From: a virus
Taxonomy: Duplodnaviria > Caudoviricetes
Strand: one strand, 5' to 3'
IMG/VR virus record: IMGVR_UViG_3300010352_001202
Length of the DNA stretch: 64,000 nt
Positions 4,844 through 56,734 of the stretch are shown piece by piece; the first letter of the stretch is position 1; each line of letters begins with the position of its first letter. Made by a program: the position numbers and the translations under genes. The notes beneath the pieces are model-generated. The model was not told where the DNA came from, did not search any database, and worked only from the letters and a program-made list of their open reading frames with translations.

Positions 4844-4897
4844 AGAATGCGTTCAGCAATTAAAAATCAAACTTGTAATTTGAAAATAAGCATTCTG
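4844..4897 (+). ncRNA. CAGCAA-module RNA A (anticodon stem-loop cargo)
   Basis: AGAATGC/GCATTCT-G helix; GTTCAGCAA; TCAAA-CTTGTAA-TTTGA. Confidence 0.7.
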
Positions 4898-5897: not shown

Positions 5898-5936
5898 TTG
5901 GAAAATTCCCGAACAAGCTATAATTTAGGAACAGAA

Positions 5937-6188
5937 ATGAAATTTATCGGTAATGTGCTAGACAAGATAGCGAATGCTGTATGTGACTTCTTTGGAGTTG
6001 CAGACAAGGATTCGGGTGTTGTATTAGGGACATTTGTTATTTTTGTTGTTTTCATCTCTGTAGTTAGTGGTGTAGGATTGCTGTCGGCCTGGTTGTTGGG
6101 TATTCCGTGGTGGAGTACATGGGCAATAGCATTCTTGTATTACATGATTCTAGTCGTGAAAGCGAACAACGATATAAATAGTAGATAG
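5937..6188 (+). CDS. Small membrane protein
   Basis: Two hydrophobic segments; AGGA SD before ATG 5937. Confidence 0.65.
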   Translation: MKFIGNVLDKIANAVCDFFGVADKDSGVVLGTFVIFVVFISVVSGVGLLSAWLLGIPWWSTWAIAFLYYMILVVKANNDINSR

Positions 6189-6870: not shown

Positions 6871-7578
6871 ATGAAAATCCACACTAAGAAATTTGTAGGC
6901 ACACCGTTTATTGTTACGGCCGAAAATATCCCAAATGAGCCAGGTGCGTGGGATTCGGCTAAAATCGCCATTTGGCGGGATGAAGTTTTGATCGGTGAAT
7001 ATATTCGTAACTATGCCAGTTACGCCATAATGACATTTTATCCGTTTCAAGTCGGTAATGAATGGTATGCACTCTACAGTGCTGATTATACCACTACTCG
7101 TGTAATGAAACTTCACGAAGATAGGATCGAAGATTGGTGTGGCGAACATCCTGCAATGGGAGGGTTTTGCCCTGTTGAATATTATATTCCGCGCTATAAT
7201 AAATCCATTGACTCGTATAGCGTAAATGAAGAAAAACATGAGTTTGATGTATATCAGATGGACAACGATTATACGAGCATGGAAGCGTTTGTTGCCGATT
7301 GGGATAAGCCTAAATTTGTAGAAACACAGTTCTGTAATTTTGCTTTTGTATGCGGCTGTATCTGGGGCGATGACTCAACCTGGAAATTACGGTATATCGA
7401 GCTTGCAGGCATTCCTGAAAAAGAATTACTTATTACAGAAAAATTTGGTTACTGGGAATTACCCACTCAAATGACACTAAGACAGTGCATTAATATGTCT
7501 AATTGGGAACCCGACCATAATTGGGTTGAACTTACTAGAATGGAGCATTTTAATCTCAAAACCGGCGAACGGTGCTGA
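6871..7578 (+). CDS. Hypothetical protein
   Basis: 235 aa ORF. Confidence 0.7.
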   Translation: MKIHTKKFVGTPFIVTAENIPNEPGAWDSAKIAIWRDEVLIGEYIRNYASYAIMTFYPFQVGNEWYALYSADYTTTRVMKLHEDRIEDWCGEHPAMGGFCPVEYYIPRYNKSIDSYSVNEEKHEFDVYQMDNDYTSMEAFVADWDKPKFVETQFCNFAFVCGCIWGDDSTWKLRYIELAGIPEKELLITEKFGYWELPTQMTLRQCINMSNWEPDHNWVELTRMEHFNLKTGERC

Positions 7579-17411: not shown

Positions 17412-17588
17412 AGGATAGGTACAGCAAACAAAATAATAAAGCAACTGGCAGCTTATAAACTGCCTATTATTGGAAGAAACCAAGTTTGTGTCGGACAAGA
17501 TTCCGAATCGAGCGTAAGCGATTTACGATAGGGAGGTGGGTTTGATAGGCCCTCCAGAATAATAATCAAACCGTTACCAACTATCCTG
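17412..17588 (+). ncRNA. CAGCAA-module RNA B
   Basis: AGGATAG/CTATCCT-G; GTACAGCAA; GATAAATA promoter at 17397 and downstream terminator. Confidence 0.75.
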
Positions 17589-20599: not shown

Positions 20600-20628
20600 T
20601 TGACAATATAAATAAAGCACACTATAAT
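20600..20628 (+). promoter_or_regulatory. Consensus sigma70 promoter driving RNA C
   Basis: TTGACA-17-TATAAT. Confidence 0.9.
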
Positions 20629-20643
20629 AGTGGCTACTTACAA

Positions 20644-20850
20644 AGAGTGGATACAGCAAACAAACCGACGCTGAAAGGCGACTATGGTGTTGATGTCGAT
20701 CTTACATGTGGAGGGTTTACCCGATGAAGCATAGTAAGGCCATCGCTCAACAAACTTCCTAGGACGAAGCAAAAGGTTCGAACTCGGGGTAAGGCCCGAA
20801 AGCAAACTAGTAATCCTTGTGGTGAAACATTTGTCCCTTACACCACTCTG
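20644..20850 (+). ncRNA. CAGCAA-module RNA C
   Basis: AGAGTGG/CCACTCT-G; ATACAGCAA; multi-hairpin interior. Confidence 0.75.
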
Positions 20851-20876: not shown

Positions 20877-21260
20877 ATGACAGTAAGTATTTCCTATTCC
20901 CTCGGAGCATTACACGAAGCTGCCAGATTTATTTGGGAGAATAATGAAAGTGTTCTAAACTGGCCTTGTTCCCCAACTTCGGCGTTTGATGTAATGACGC
21001 AAATTAGGGATATGATGGTCAAGGGAGCATTGGAAAATGCTGAGTTCTTAAAGAAAGAAAAGAACAAAACTTTATCAGCCGATGACGATTGGATGACATT
21101 CAATGGTACCGGCGGATATTATGTCCTGTATGAGCTCTTAAGTGAAGAAGATGATGAAGAAGTGCGCATCGGTATCGACATTTTGGTTGATCCCTCGGTT
21201 AGTCATCCTAACCCCCGGTACGTAACAGAAGTCGTTGACAACACAGAAGAGACTGTATAA
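20877..21260 (+). CDS. Hypothetical protein
   Basis: 127 aa ORF. Confidence 0.65.
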   Translation: MTVSISYSLGALHEAARFIWENNESVLNWPCSPTSAFDVMTQIRDMMVKGALENAEFLKKEKNKTLSADDDWMTFNGTGGYYVLYELLSEEDDEEVRIGIDILVDPSVSHPNPRYVTEVVDNTEETV

Positions 21261-21263
21261 ACT
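21235..21263 (+). promoter_or_regulatory. Sigma70-type promoter driving RNA D
   Basis: TTGACA-17-TAAACT. Confidence 0.7.
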
Positions 21264-21280
21264 AGAGACTTACTTGCTAA

Positions 21281-21390
21281 AGATTAGGTACAGCAAAAAA
21301 TAAAATTAGCATATTAGGGCACACTCGAAAGGGTGTATAACTAAGAACCTTTCTGAAGGGGAAAGCAAAAACTCGTCAAAACCTAATCTG
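21281..21390 (+). ncRNA. CAGCAA-module RNA D
   Basis: AGATTAGGT/ACCTAATCT-G; GTACAGCAA; ACACTC-GAAA-GGGTGT hairpin. Confidence 0.75.
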
Positions 21391-21400
21391 ATCTAATTTT

Positions 21401-22024
21401 ATGTATGGACATTGGATTACAAAGATAGAATTTAATCCGGATGATTATATCGGGTTTGTTTATCTTGTGATTAATGTTCTTACAGATCAAAAATATATCG
21501 GCAAGAAAAATTTCAGAGTTAATACACGAACCACAGAAAGGTGGGAAGAGTATACTTCGAGTTCGAAGTATCTAACTAAAGATATTTTAAAATTAGGAAA
21601 AGAAAATTTTCGATTTGAGATTTTATTTCTGTGTAAAACAAAAGAAGAATTAGATAATTTAGAAATAGAAGAACAAAAAAGAAGAAATATACTTAGATCC
21701 TTATTGCCTAACGGCACACGAGAATATTATAATAGGTATATACATAAGGTCGGTCTTAGCACAAATGGGGCTAAATTTAGCGAAGATGTAAAAGAAAAAA
21801 TGCGTAAAACACATACTGGTGTTCCGCATAATTCTAAAGATAAGAAAGTATATCAGTTTAAAGATACAAACACTGGTATTGTCCAAAATTGGACAAGAAA
21901 AGAATTCCAAAATATAGTGGGTGCTGATCCCTGTAAATTAGTTATAGGTAAGGCAAAATCTGTAAGAAAATGGATTTGTTTAGATCCGATTGATGGGATA
22001 AGGAATTATCCTAAGAGAAAGTAA
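21401..22024 (+). mobile_element. GIY-YIG endonuclease
   Basis: GFVYLVIN...KYIGKK...WEEYTSSS...YYN. Confidence 0.85.
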
Positions 22025-22030
22025 TTTTAA

Positions 22031-22150
22031 AGATTCCGTTCCGCAACTAAAATTAATAAACCGAGGTATGTGGGTTCGAGCCCCACTCTCATTGGCAACA
22101 GTGAGATAGTCGAATTGGTATAGACATTGGTCAAATAAAAAGCGAATCTG
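22031..22150 (+). ncRNA. CAGCAA-module RNA E: circularly permuted tRNA mimic (YrlA-like Y RNA)
   Basis: AGATTC/GAATCT-G; GTTCCGCAA; then T arm, GCAA-capped acceptor stem and D arm in permuted order. Confidence 0.85.
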
Positions 22151-22499: not shown

Positions 22500-22691
22500 A
22501 TGGGATTTAGATTTCGTAAAAGTATAAAGGTTGGTGGAATTAAGTTAAATCTTGGTAAGACCGGATTAACCAGTGTTTCGGTAAAACCGACTAAAAATAC
22601 AAATATCTCAGCAGGTAAGACCGGAGTCACCGGATCTGTATCTTGGTTAGGCACCGGACTTAGTTATATTTTCAAGATATTCAAATGGTAA
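22500..22691 (+). CDS. DUF4236-like protein
   Basis: MGFRFRKSIKVGGIKLNLGKTG...GTGLSY. Confidence 0.8.
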   Translation: MGFRFRKSIKVGGIKLNLGKTGLTSVSVKPTKNTNISAGKTGVTGSVSWLGTGLSYIFKIFKW

Positions 22692-22876
22692 AAATGAAAG
22701 CATTAGTTCTTTTGGCAGCTATATTCTTGGCAACCTCAGCAAGTGCTACAGGTGGTAGATTAAATAGCAAGGGATGTCATAATAGTAAGAAGGTCGGATA
22801 TCATTGCCATAGAAGTCAAGATAAACCTGCACCTGTTAAGAAAGAAAAAGTTATTCCAAAGAAGAATAAACAATAA
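22685..22876 (+). CDS. Secreted YHYH-like small protein
   Basis: Signal peptide; GGRLNSKGCHN...GYHCH. Confidence 0.75.
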   Translation: MVKMKALVLLAAIFLATSASATGGRLNSKGCHNSKKVGYHCHRSQDKPAPVKKEKVIPKKNKQ

Positions 22877-22909
22877 AGAATTTTGACAGCAACTTAAAAT
22901 AAAATTCTG
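22877..22909 (+). promoter_or_regulatory. Cargo-less CAGCAA module F in the DUF2828 gene leader
   Basis: AGAATTTT-GACAGCAACTTAAAAT-AAAATTCT-G, immediately before the GGAG SD. Confidence 0.75.
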
Positions 22910-22924
22910 AACGGAGAAACAAAA

Positions 22925-24313
22925 ATGACAACACTATTTGAAGCAGTAAACGCAAACGCAACAACAGCAAACGGGGCCGTGACAAACGCATCGTCTCTAA
23001 ATAAAAATGTGGACCTTTTCTTCCTTGCTGGTGCAAGCCGCGGTAAGGATATCACTTCTACCTTCGCCGGAGCCTTCGTTGAAGACTCCGAAGTTGCAAC
23101 TCGTATCCTTCAGTGGGCACGTGATGCACGCGGTGGAGCAGGTGAGCGTGAAACTTTCCGTAAGTTGTTCGGCTATCTGTTGAAGAACGAAATCGCAATC
23201 GCTTCTCGCGTGCTTGTAAAGGCACCTGAGCTTGGCCGTTGGGACGACGTTTTGATCGCCTTCGGTACACCTATCGAGCGTGAAGCTCTGCGTATGATCG
23301 CCTTTGCTTTGAACGAAGTAAAGGATGGTCTGTGCGCAAAGTGGATGCCGCGTCAGGGTGCGGAAGCGAACAAGATTCGCTCGTACATGAAGTTGACTCC
23401 GAAGCAATATCGTAAGCTCTTGGTTGGCTTGTCCAACACTGTTGAGCAGAAGATGTGTGCCCAGGATTGGACTGGAATCGTGTATCCGCATGTTCCGTCG
23501 GTTGCTGCTGGTCGTTACCAGAAGGCTTTCTTGAAGCACGATCCTTCGGGATATGCGAAGTACAAGGAAAAGCTGGTTTCGGGCGAAGCGAAGATCAACG
23601 CATCGGTTGCTTACCCGTACGACGTGATTCGTTCACTTCGTAACGGCGATAAGGTTGTTGCTAACGCACAATGGGATGCATTGCCAAACTATCTTGAAGG
23701 TTCGGACGAAAACATCCTCCCGGTTGTTGACGTTTCGGGTTCTATGGATTTCCAAGTGTCTGGTAGCGTAACTGCTATGGACGTTGCGATCTCCTTGGGA
23801 TTGTACACTTCGGAACGTATGGGTGGTGTGTTCAAGGACCAGTTCGTGACATTCTCGAGCCAGCCGGAAATGCTGCACTTGAAGGGCAACCTTCAACAGC
23901 GTTATGACGCAATGGCTCGTTCCAACTGGGCAATGAGCACAGATATCCAGGCTGTGTTCAAGTTGATCTTGACTTCGGCAACGAAGCATAAGGTTGCTCA
24001 GAAGGAAATGCCGACAAAGATCCTGATCTTGTCGGACATGGAATTCAACACTTGCGTTACTGGCGGAACAAGCGTTAGCGCAATGAACATGATTGAGAAG
24101 GAATATGCTGCCGCAGGGTACAAGGTTCCGCAGGTTGTGTTCTGGAACCTGAAGGGTCGTGCTGGAAACAGCCCGGTTACCTACAACCAGTCCGGAACTG
24201 CACTTGTGTCGGGCTTCTCTCCGAGCATCGTTAAGTCGGTACTTGGTGGTGAAGAAATGACACCGATCAGCATCATGCTGAAGACTGTAATGGTCCAGAG
24301 ATACGACTTCTAA
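22925..24313 (+). CDS. DUF2828-family helical + vWA protein (TROVE/Ro60-like architecture)
   Basis: RDARGGAGER, GRWDD, KWMP; vWA VVDVSGSM, LILSDMEF, VFWN. Confidence 0.85.
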   Translation: MTTLFEAVNANATTANGAVTNASSLNKNVDLFFLAGASRGKDITSTFAGAFVEDSEVATRILQWARDARGGAGERETFRKLFGYLLKNEIAIASRVLVKAPELGRWDDVLIAFGTPIEREALRMIAFALNEVKDGLCAKWMPRQGAEANKIRSYMKLTPKQYRKLLVGLSNTVEQKMCAQDWTGIVYPHVPSVAAGRYQKAFLKHDPSGYAKYKEKLVSGEAKINASVAYPYDVIRSLRNGDKVVANAQWDALPNYLEGSDENILPVVDVSGSMDFQVSGSVTAMDVAISLGLYTSERMGGVFKDQFVTFSSQPEMLHLKGNLQQRYDAMARSNWAMSTDIQAVFKLILTSATKHKVAQKEMPTKILILSDMEFNTCVTGGTSVSAMNMIEKEYAAAGYKVPQVVFWNLKGRAGNSPVTYNQSGTALVSGFSPSIVKSVLGGEEMTPISIMLKTVMVQRYDF

Positions 24314-24330
24314 GAGGTTGTTCTCCTAAA

Positions 24331-24354
24331 AAAGGGGCAGAAACTGCCCCTTTT
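24331..24354 (+). terminator. Intrinsic terminator
   Basis: AAAGGGGCAG-AAA-CTGCCCCTTTT. Confidence 0.85.
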
Positions 24355-24664: not shown

Positions 24665-25057
24665 ATGAAATCTAAGTGTTTAAATTGTCTCCAAGAATTT
24701 GAATATAATCCGCATCAAAATGCAGGTTTATATTGTTCAAATTCTTGCAGAGGAATACATAAATCCAGGCTTCATAAAGAAGCCTGGTATGCAGGTACAT
24801 TAACAAAGAAGATCGATCGTCCTACTATTAGAAAATATCTAACAGAGGATCGAGGATATAATTGTGAAATATGTAAATTATCAGAATGGCAAAATCAGCC
24901 CATAACACTTGAGGTTGATCACACCGATGGAAATTCTGCAGACGATAACCCGAGTAATGTAAGATTGATATGCCCCAATTGTCACAGTCAATCACCACAT
25001 CGCGGCGCTGCCAATAAGGGTAGAGGTCGTAAATCTTTAGGACTTTCGTTATACTAG
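24665..25057 (+). mobile_element. HNH endonuclease
   Basis: CEICK...LEVDHTDGN...NVRLICPNCH. Confidence 0.9.
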
Positions 25058-55681: not shown

Positions 55682-56734
55682 ATGTCTAAAACATTAGAAG
55701 AAATTCGCAAGAAGTTACAAGCACTCGAGTCACGCAAAGGTGGCGGCACACAAGGTTTCAGCGGCGATAAGGCAACTTACGCACATTGGAATATCCCAGA
55801 GGGCACATCCGCAATTCAAAGATTTCTCCCAGACGCCAACGAAGATAACACATTCTTCTGGGCTGAGAAGCAAATCATCAAGCTTCCTTTCCCTGGTATC
55901 AAGGGACAAGACGAAAGCAAGCCAGTTATTGTTCAAGTTCCATGTATCGAAATGTTTGACGGTCCAAAGACCTGTCCTGTACTGAACGAAGTCCGTCCTT
56001 GGTGGAAGGATAAGTCTCTTGAAGAGACCGCTCGTAAGTATTGGGTAAAGCGTTCGTATTACATGCAAGGTTTTGTCAAGCAAGATCCAATGAACGAACA
56101 AGATCCTCCAGAAAATCCAATCCGTAAGTACATTATGGGTCCGCAGATTTTCGCAATCATCAAGGCAGCATTACTTGATCCTGATATGACATACAGCCCT
56201 GTTGATTTAATCAACGGTACTGACTTTATCATTTCCAAGACAAGCAAGGGCGGTTTTGCCGACTACGGTACTTCGAAGTGGGCAAGAAAGGAATCCAGCA
56301 TTACTGAAGATATGCAAGCAGCTATCGACAAGTACGGTTTGGTTGATCTTTCGACATACCTACCGAAGCGTCCTACTCCGGAACAACTTGCCATCATCTA
56401 TGAAATGTTCCAAGCATCTCTAGATGGCGAATTGTATGATCCGGCACAGTGGAGCCAGCATTACAAGCCATTCGGCTTCGACGCAGCCGGCGGTGATGAT
56501 CCTGATGCAGGCGAAGGCAAGAAAGTCAACCGCAGCGCACCTGTATCGCGTCCGGCAGTTTCTACTCCTGTAGTACCTAAGGTTACACAACCTGTAGTTA
56601 CAGAAGAGTCAGAAGATCCTCCGTTCGATGTTGATGTTCCTGCTGACGATGCAACACCGGTAGCTACCACAGCAGCACCGGCTGGTAAATCTCCTCAAGA
56701 AATCCTGGCAATGCTCAGAAATCGTAATAAATGA
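55682..56734 (+). CDS. Single-stranded DNA-binding protein (gp32-like)
   Basis: RFLP, C...CPV, G.DF...K, YGTSKW; acidic tail. Confidence 0.88.
   Translation: MSKTLEEIRKKLQALESRKGGGTQGFSGDKATYAHWNIPEGTSAIQRFLPDANEDNTFFWAEKQIIKLPFPGIKGQDESKPVIVQVPCIEMFDGPKTCPVLNEVRPWWKDKSLEETARKYWVKRSYYMQGFVKQDPMNEQDPPENPIRKYIMGPQIFAIIKAALLDPDMTYSPVDLINGTDFIISKTSKGGFADYGTSKWARKESSITEDMQAAIDKYGLVDLSTYLPKRPTPEQLAIIYEMFQASLDGELYDPAQWSQHYKPFGFDAAGGDDPDAGEGKKVNRSAPVSRPAVSTPVVPKVTQPVVTEESEDPPFDVDVPADDATPVATTAAPAGKSPQEILAMLRNRNK

What the first reader, a model, noticed from the sequence alone, without database searches (positions are those of the whole stretch)
22877..22927. Cargo-less module abutting the DUF2828 ribosome-binding site: probable autoregulatory operator
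Seen: the minimal module AGAATTTT-GACAGCAACTTAAAAT-AAAATTCT-G ends just before the GGAG SD of the DUF2828 gene. Inference: free protein binds its own mRNA once the cargo RNAs are saturated, as in ribosomal-protein autoregulation. This is the strongest link in the sequence between the motif and this protein.
Basis: partly seen in the sequence, partly recalled or inferred. Interest (0 to 1): 0.78.

Follow-up and report, generated by a model that had tools for sequence, protein, structure and literature searches.

The report
Handle-only RNA hairpin on Ro60-like gene's leader
A 33-base hairpin just before the start of a phage gene for a Ro60-like RNA-binding protein is a conserved, stripped-down copy of the "handle" shared by that protein's presumed partner RNAs, so it is probably the site where the protein throttles its own synthesis, though no binding has been shown.

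Summary
Window 22877-22909 is an 8-bp AT-rich stem enclosing CAGCAA, followed by an unpaired G. The GGAG lies 3 nt further on and the ATG of a DUF2828/DUF7788 gene 15 nt further on.

The hairpin alone is not significant (dG -3.7, z -0.5). It is, however, a member of a real, strand-specific family:
- 7 pattern hits in the window against 0.85 in shuffles.
- 156 against 6 hits by strand in 80 related loci.

The protein model matches full-length Ro60.

All 22 close relatives end a handle 10-18 nt before the ATG, 14 of them cargo-less. Every clear cargo-less copy found lies in a DUF2828 leader, including 11 of 12 hits in an unconditioned IMG/VR scan. Four relatives have a near-consensus promoter 10-16 nt upstream, which makes the hairpin the start of the 5'UTR. 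The handle's invariant G touches or overlaps the SD.

Autoregulation by SD occlusion is the best reading (about 0.5) but is inferred. Many distant homologues have no leader handle, and other modules in the window also abut ORF starts.

The scan has already reported the handle/DUF2828 pairing on other DNA, in at least 126 genomes. The leader copy is the new point here.

The parts
22877..22884 (+). 5' arm of the closing stem (AGAATTTT). The first two bases, AG, are invariant in this clade's modules.
22887..22892 (+). CAGCAA core of the handle, unpaired, 2-3 nt after the 5' arm
   Evidence: C, A, G, C, A are invariant in nine leader copies
22893..22900 (+). short A/U-rich linker. It takes the place where other copies carry a cargo (a tRNA-like body or an anticodon-type hairpin).
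22901..22909 (+). 3' arm AAAATTCT plus the invariant unpaired G
   Evidence: the G lies -1 to +3 nt from the SD in close kin
22913..22916 (+). GGAG Shine-Dalgarno of the DUF2828 gene
22925..24313 (+). gene for a 462-aa Ro60-like protein (DUF2828 + DUF7788, vWA with DVSGSM MIDAS)
24330..24354 (+). terminator-like hairpin that closes the transcription unit after the gene
22031..22150 (+). module E: the same handle (CCGCAA variant) carrying a YrlA-type tRNA-like body. In 8 close relatives this type, rather than F, abuts the SD.
21281..21390 (+). module D, preceded by promoter TTGACA-17-TAAACT at 21235-21263
20644..20850 (+). module C, preceded by a consensus promoter at 20600-20628
17412..17588 (+). 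module B
4844..4897 (+). module A, whose cargo is a 5-bp hairpin with a 7-nt anticodon-type loop

Best explanation
The hairpin is a functional, cargo-free copy of the CAGCAA handle and lies in the 5'UTR of the Ro60-like (DUF2828) gene. The handle is the part shared by all small RNAs that travel with this gene, so it is the likely docking site of the protein.

Proposed mechanism:
1. While the trans RNAs (A-E and others) soak up the protein, the weak AU stem stays open and the AU-rich leader is translated.
2. When free protein accumulates, it clamps the stem plus CAGCAA plus the terminal G.
3. That G lies 3 nt from GGAG here and overlaps the SD in some relatives, so the bound roughly 50-kDa ring blocks 30S binding.

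Shown: family membership, conservation, the exclusive leader position, the 5'UTR context and the Ro60 fold.
Inferred: that this protein binds the handle, and that binding represses translation.
For: 1. Family membership. Six modules share one layout on one strand, with 7 hits against 0.85 expected. In 80 loci chosen only for a DUF2828 gene there are 156 hits on the gene strand and 6 on the other. The handle also accompanies the gene in Felixounavirus, Cronobacter S13, KVP40 and mycobacteriophage Gardann.

2. Protein. The model (pLDDT 80.8) has full-length Ro60 chains as its top 13 PDB matches, E 6.6e-10 to 3.4e-6, and the MIDAS motif is invariant.

3. Leader conservation. All 22 relatives at 73-85% identity end a handle 10-18 nt before the ATG. 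In 14 it is cargo-less, with stems that differ yet pair (AGAATTT, AGAATT, AGAATTA, AGATTTA, AGAATCA). L078, at about 50% identity, has its own GC-richer cargo-less copy.

4. Exclusivity. All 16 clear cargo-less modules sit in this leader. The covariance model's strong hits (44-55 bits) lie only in DUF2828 leaders. A pattern scan of all IMG/VR contigs, not conditioned on the gene, gave 12 hits, of which 11 precede a DUF2828 start.

5. 5'UTR context. Near-consensus sigma-70-type promoters end 10-16 nt before the hairpin in L002, L009, L013 and L014.

6. Geometry. The handle's terminal G is -1 to +3 nt from the SD in the close clade.

7. Stem strength. Leader copies have the weakest stems, 1.2 against 2.6 G-C pairs, as expected for a helix that needs a protein to hold it.

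8. Parallel with Ro60. Ro60 recognises a short motif on the 5' strand next to the terminal stem of Y RNAs (PMC4201824).
Against: - There is no binding or expression data, and RNA read data could not be obtained.
- The link between the handle and this particular protein rests on gene neighbourhood and on fold analogy.
- At least 25 distant homologues lack a leader handle and have promoter-type leaders. The feature is therefore clade-specific and not inherent to the system.
- Modules B, D and E also end 2-10 nt before ORF starts, so tight packing alone can put a module next to a start codon.
- Covariation among the nine aligned leader copies is modest: 2 of 7 pairs vary.
- The GC-content comparison does not correct for shared ancestry.
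- In the window the hairpin has no promoter of its own. It touches the stop codon of the upstream ORF, so terminating ribosomes would open its 5' arm.
Confidence: 0.5

Rival explanations
1. It is simply the last and smallest RNA gene of a co-transcribed RNA-protein operon. It would be cut out like its neighbours and act in trans, for example as a cargo-free competitor or cap for the protein, with no effect on translation of the mRNA it came from.
For: Modules and the gene share one transcription unit, with promoters at 20600 and 21235 and a terminator at 24330. Other modules also abut ORF starts. In many kin the RNAs lie next to the gene without touching its SD.
Against: Cargo-less copies are never found anywhere except in the leader. 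Where a promoter fires directly into the hairpin, excising it would leave an mRNA with 0-3 nt ahead of the SD. In L009, L013 and L014 the terminal G is part of the SD.
Confidence: 0.2
2. It is a cis element read by something other than the Ro60-like protein. It could be a 5' stem-loop that protects the mRNA from 5'-end-dependent decay, or a signal for the nuclease that trims all handle RNAs and so sets the 5' end of the mRNA.
For: In four relatives the hairpin lies 3-10 nt from the predicted transcript start, the position of known stabilising 5' hairpins. All modules share fixed ends (AG...CT-G) that could be processing marks.
Against: The stem is very weak (dG -3.7) and would protect poorly by itself. 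A stabiliser would not need the unpaired CAGCAA, which is invariant. No nuclease partner has been identified.
Confidence: 0.2
3. It is a decaying relic of a cargo-bearing module, or a chance hairpin with no function.
For: The hairpin energy is not better than shuffles. L021 looks like an E-type module that lost its cargo.
Against: The stem ends, CAGCA and the terminal G are conserved in 11 distinct sequences while the loop varies. There are compensatory stem changes and a separate copy in distant L078.
Confidence: 0.05

Closest known systems
Ro60 (Rsr) with Y RNAs, especially bacterial and phage YrlA/YrlB (Chen et al. 2014, PMC4201824; Rfam RF02553) and Thermus phage phiLo Ro60 with Yrl1/Yrl2 (PMC12135203)
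   Same: A ring-plus-vWA protein is encoded beside small RNAs whose 5' and 3' ends pair. These RNAs carry a short conserved motif on the 5' strand next to that stem. At least one RNA (module E) has a tRNA-like body in YrlA order: T arm, closed acceptor, D arm.
   Different: The motif is CAGCAA, not GNCGAA or GGUCCGA. No module reaches the Rfam YrlA threshold: E scores 11.8 bits against 69, and F scores nothing. The protein hits DUF2828/DUF7788 rather than Pfam TROVE. No leader copy or autoregulation is described in the Ro60 papers I read.
Translational feedback by target mimicry: ribosomal-protein operators, the thrS operator (an anticodon-arm mimic beside the SD), T4 gp32 and RegA, and the MS2 coat-protein hairpin (established knowledge, not tested here)
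   Same: A copy of the protein's RNA ligand lies in its own leader next to the SD. Competing trans ligands would set the level of free protein.
   Different: Neither binding nor repression has been shown here. The hairpin does not contain the SD or the AUG; it ends 0-3 nt before the SD.
Class I RNAs of dictyostelid amoebae (Kjellin et al. 2021, PMC7919456)
   Same: The paper describes 42-65-nt RNAs with a short terminal stem that has compensatory changes and a conserved 5' G. An unpaired 11-nt motif beside the 5' arm has its last six positions fitting C-N-N-C-A-A, and the 3' end is CUGU. This is the same build as the handle.
   Different: Class I RNAs are eukaryotic, have their own promoter element, and their reported binder is an RRM protein. 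Homology was not tested here; the lead came from earlier notes of this scan.
Bas63 gp130 (PhageMaP preprint, 10.1101/2024.10.10.617714)
   Same: This is a Felixounavirus protein structurally similar to Ro60 that sits just upstream of the tRNA array. A related Felixounavirus carries four unannotated handle RNAs in that array.
   Different: That work guessed that some tRNA genes might be Y RNAs. It described no handle and no leader element, and Felixounavirus leaders lack a module.

Membership tests
CAGCAA-handle RNAs that accompany DUF2828 genes (not in Rfam 15) | 6-8 bp terminal stem beginning AG and ending CT, followed by an unpaired G | tested here: met
   22877-22884 pairs with 22901-22908, followed by G at 22909
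CAGCAA-handle RNAs that accompany DUF2828 genes (not in Rfam 15) | C(A/C)GCA(A/T) 1-5 nt after the 5' arm, on the strand of the DUF2828 gene | tested here: met
   CAGCAA at 22887-22892 on the + strand. The strand bias is 156 against 6.
CAGCAA-handle RNAs that accompany DUF2828 genes (not in Rfam 15) | a variable cargo between the linker and the 3' arm | tested here: not met
   Only 8 nt lie between the core and the 3' arm. This is the distinguishing trait of the leader copies.
Y RNA / YrlA (Rfam RF02553) | score at or above the family's gathering threshold (69 bits) | tested here: not met
   No hit on F. Module E scores 11.8 bits, E 7.6.
Y RNA / YrlA (Rfam RF02553) | GNCGAA(N)G or GGUCCGA motif on the 5' strand (PMC4201824) | tested here: not met
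   The motif here is CAGCAA.
Y RNA / YrlA (Rfam RF02553) | encoded next to a Ro60 orthologue, with the 5' and 3' ends paired | tested here: met
   The neighbouring protein has a Ro60 fold, and the terminal stem is present.
Ro60/TROVE proteins (for the neighbouring gene) | helical-repeat ring plus a vWA domain with a MIDAS motif | tested here: met
   Foldseek's top 13 matches are all Ro60, TM 0.40-0.58. DVSGSM is invariant. There is no Pfam TROVE hit, only DUF2828 and DUF7788, and phmmer against PDB sequences finds nothing.
Autoregulatory translational operator | a mimic of the protein's RNA ligand lies in its own leader next to the SD | tested here: met
   The handle copy ends 3 nt before GGAG. 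The position is conserved in the clade, and promoters in four kin place it in the 5'UTR.
Autoregulatory translational operator | the protein binds the site and lowers its own translation | not testable with these tools
   This needs a binding assay, a reporter fusion or toeprinting.
Intrinsic terminator | G+C-rich stem followed by a T run | tested here: not met
   The stem has one G-C pair and is followed by GAACGG. The scan lists none here.
Sigma-70-type promoter | TTGACA-like and TATAAT-like hexamers 16-18 nt apart | tested here: not met
   TTGACA at 22883-22888 has no -10 partner, and the scan lists no + strand promoter there.

The most novel reading that the evidence does not exclude
A phage Ro60-like protein measures its own free concentration with a 33-nt, cargo-free copy of its partner RNAs' handle placed on its Shine-Dalgarno sequence. 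This would be the first feedback loop described for a Ro60-type particle. It would also define the minimal binding site of a very widespread, still unnamed RNA family: the handle RNAs of DUF2828 proteins, possibly kin of the amoebal Class I RNAs.
Probability: 0.4. Interest if true: 0.78.

Novelty: new variant of a known kind. Interest (0 to 1): 0.6.

Why it matters
DUF2828 proteins occur in more than 700 sequenced phages, including Felix O1 relatives, KVP40, Listeria A511 and many mycobacteriophages. One of them counters a bacterial defence system (10.1101/2024.10.10.617714), yet their RNA partners are not described.

The leader hairpin is the smallest natural version of the shared handle. It therefore offers a ready-made minimal substrate for binding, structural and reporter experiments. 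If it is an operator, it explains how protein and RNA levels are matched during infection.

It also adds a case to the short list of RNA-binding proteins that regulate themselves through a mimic of their ligand.

Tried and rejected
- Hairpin stability as evidence: not significant.
- Exact or near-exact repeats of the 18-mer or 9-10-mers in the window: at chance level. The family shows up only when the covarying stem is allowed to vary.
- tRNA flanks as the 'module': not supported.
- Rfam at gathering and at permissive thresholds: no family matches.
- Terminator and promoter readings of the hairpin itself: rejected.
- Whole genome of the window: none is held.
- Sequence search of the protein against PDB: only noise. 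Fold search was needed to find Ro60.
- Literature search for DUF2828: only incidental mentions.
- One IMG/VR pattern hit in a giant-virus bin (L089): I judged it a chance match from its sequence context, not a leader.
- KVP40's leader has CAGCAA 18 nt before its SD behind a consensus-like promoter, but only an imperfect stem. I do not count it as a member.

Full report
**What is there.** One search confirms the element base for base. AGAATTTT (22877-22884) pairs with AAAATTCT (22901-22908). The loop opens with GA and CAGCAA (22887-22892). An unpaired G follows at 22909, then AAC, GGAG (22913-22916) and the ATG at 22925. The stop codon of a 63-aa ORF touches the first base of the hairpin. The downstream 462-aa protein hits Pfam DUF7788 and DUF2828 and PHROG 850, 'RNA-binding protein'. 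The window comes from a large tRNA-rich phage with 20 tRNA genes.

**Is it more than chance?** By itself, no. The fold is -3.7 kcal/mol with z -0.54, and plain-sequence searches for its core find only chance numbers. As a member of a family, yes.
- Five other intergenic loci (4844, 17412, 20644, 21281, 22031) share the same layout: a stem that starts AG and ends CT, then G, with C(A/C)GCAA 2-4 nt after the 5' arm. Their stem sequences differ but stay complementary.
- A mechanical scan for that layout gives 7 hits on the + strand and none on the - strand. Dinucleotide shuffles give 0.85 +/- 0.95.
- In 80 IMG/VR loci fetched only because they encode a relative of the protein, the scan gives 156 hits on the gene's strand and 6 on the other.
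- The same handle lies next to the gene in a Felixounavirus, Cronobacter phage S13, KVP40 and mycobacteriophage Gardann. In Gardann the stem ends differ, but CAGCAA and the trailing G persist.
- Rfam 15 has no family for it.
- Earlier reports of this scan describe the same pairing in at least 126 genomes. I re-derived it here independently.

**The protein.** An AlphaFold model built on 17 homologues (pLDDT 80.8) has full-length Ro60 chains as its best 13 PDB matches. These include phage phiLo, Xenopus, human and Deinococcus Rsr, with E 6.6e-10 to 3.4e-6 and TM 0.40-0.58. The vWA MIDAS motif DVSGSM is invariant. Sequence search alone finds nothing in the PDB. Mycobacteriophage homologues are already annotated 'Ro-like RNA binding protein'.

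Module E (22031-22150) carries a T arm, a closed acceptor stem and a D arm in the order typical of YrlA RNAs. The Rfam YrlA model aligns exactly these parts, but at 11.8 bits against a threshold of 69. The system therefore works like Ro60 with Y RNAs but fails the sequence-level membership tests. In particular, the 5'-strand motif is CAGCAA rather than the GNCGAA/GGUCCGA of known Y RNAs (PMC4201824).

**The leader copy in relatives.**
- All 22 loci with 73-85% protein identity end a handle 10-18 nt before the ATG.
- In 14 of them the handle is cargo-less like the window's. Their stems read AGAATTT, AGAATT, AGAATTA, AGAGTTA, AGATTTA or AGAATCA, each with a matching 3' arm. The loops vary, while TAAAG, CAGCA and TCTG stay fixed.
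- In the other 8, the tRNA-like E-type module ends at the same place.
- L021 carries an E-type stem and core with the cargo gone. Distant L078 has its own GC-richer cargo-less copy 19 nt before the ATG.
- All 16 clear cargo-less modules found lie in a DUF2828 leader.
- A covariance model made from nine leader copies gives strong hits only at leaders across 820 kb of fetched DNA.
- A pattern with the AGAATT stem, searched in all IMG/VR contigs without reference to the gene, returned 12 places. Eleven directly precede a DUF2828 start; the twelfth I judged a chance match from its sequence context in a giant-virus bin.

**Transcript context.** In L002, L009, L013 and L014 a near-consensus sigma-70-type promoter ends 10-16 nt before the hairpin. 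There the hairpin is the beginning of the 5'UTR of a dedicated DUF2828 transcript. In the window there is no such promoter. Promoters precede modules C and D, and a terminator-like hairpin follows the gene, so the hairpin lies inside a longer transcript.

**Geometry.** The handle's invariant terminal G is -1 to +3 nt from the SD in the close clade and forms part of the SD in L009, L013 and L014. Leader copies also have the weakest stems, 1.2 against 2.6 G-C pairs. This comparison is not corrected for ancestry.

**Reading.** The conserved handle is the only part shared by all the RNAs, so it is the likely docking site. The Ro60-like protein is the likely reader, by neighbourhood across very distant phages and by analogy with Ro60, which reads a motif on the 5' strand beside the terminal stem. 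A cargo-free handle that exists only on the protein's own SD is best explained as a feedback site. Free protein would clamp the weak helix and block the 30S subunit, and the trans RNAs would compete for the protein. I put this at about 0.5.

**Alternatives.**
- A co-transcribed minimal RNA with no cis role (0.2). This sits poorly with the exclusive leader position and with the SD overlap.
- A cis element read by another factor, either a 5' stabiliser or a processing mark (0.2). This does not explain the invariant unpaired CAGCAA.
- A relic or chance hairpin (0.05).

**Limits.**
- Nothing shows binding or regulation, and read data could not be obtained.
- At least 25 distant homologues, Felixounavirus and Gardann have promoter-type leaders without a handle and keep their RNAs downstream. 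The operator, if real, is therefore a clade-specific addition.
- Modules B, D and E also end 2-10 nt before ORF starts. The stronger link is the gene-strand association across phages.

**Novelty.** The Ro60-like nature of DUF2828 proteins is already noted in annotations and for Bas63 gp130 (10.1101/2024.10.10.617714). The handle RNA family is absent from Rfam and from the papers I could search, but this scan has already reported it. A handle-only copy acting on the protein's own leader is a new variant of a known kind, namely feedback by ligand mimicry. It also gives a minimal, testable binding site.

Noticed in passing
L081:6686-7453 (Escherichia phage humlepung, Felixounavirus): Four unannotated handle RNAs lie between annotated tRNA genes just downstream of the vWFA/DUF2828 gene. 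One (7327-7453) has a T arm, a closed acceptor and a D arm. This bears on Bas63 gp130, whose RNA partners were only guessed at.
   Followed up: partly
L084:3895-4165 (Mycobacterium phage Gardann): Three handle RNAs follow the 'Ro-like RNA binding protein' gene. Their stems begin TGG and end CCA plus G, and their cores are CAGCAA or CAGTAA. The middle one overlaps the annotated tRNA-Asn and looks like a YrlA-type body. Rfam YrlA does not reach threshold there.
   Followed up: partly
L082:4870-4931 (Vibrio phage KVP40 leader): After a TTTACA-17-TATAAT promoter, the DUF2828 leader contains CAGCAA about 18 nt before the SD, with only an imperfect flanking stem. It may be a degenerate leader handle.
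   Followed up: no
window 21264-21280; L002:5938-5953; L015 and L020 about 5930-5953: A conserved ACTTGCTAA-like stretch lies between the promoter -10 and the module start. Its TTGCT is complementary to the AGCAA of the core, so an alternative pairing that hides the core is possible in promoter-proximal copies.
   Followed up: no
window 4844-4897; L062:2268; L064:2442; L070:1413 and 5924: The short modules carry a 5-bp hairpin with a 7-nt loop that reads like a tRNA anticodon loop (CTTGTAA, CTTTTAA, CTGTAAA). The same loop, TGCGGAT, occurs in a Felixounavirus and in a mycobacteriophage module.
   Followed up: no
window 21401-22024 and 24665-25057: A SegE-type GIY-YIG endonuclease gene sits exactly between modules D and E, and an HNH-type ORF follows the DUF2828 unit just before a tRNA-Gly.
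   Followed up: no
window 55800-55979: A seventh pattern hit (stem AGGGCA with a G-T pair, core CCGCAA, 180 nt) lies far from the others. It is probably a chance match.
   Followed up: no
L064:7123-7147 and L065:10468-10492: A 25-nt mini hairpin fits the pattern with a CAGCAT core, about 4.5 kb downstream of the gene start. Its status is unclear.
   Followed up: no
window 22685-22876: The 63-aa ORF that ends at the hairpin has a signal-peptide-like N-terminus and a Cys/His-rich, lysine-rich tail. It has no family hit. The preceding 63-aa ORF is DUF4236.
   Followed up: partly
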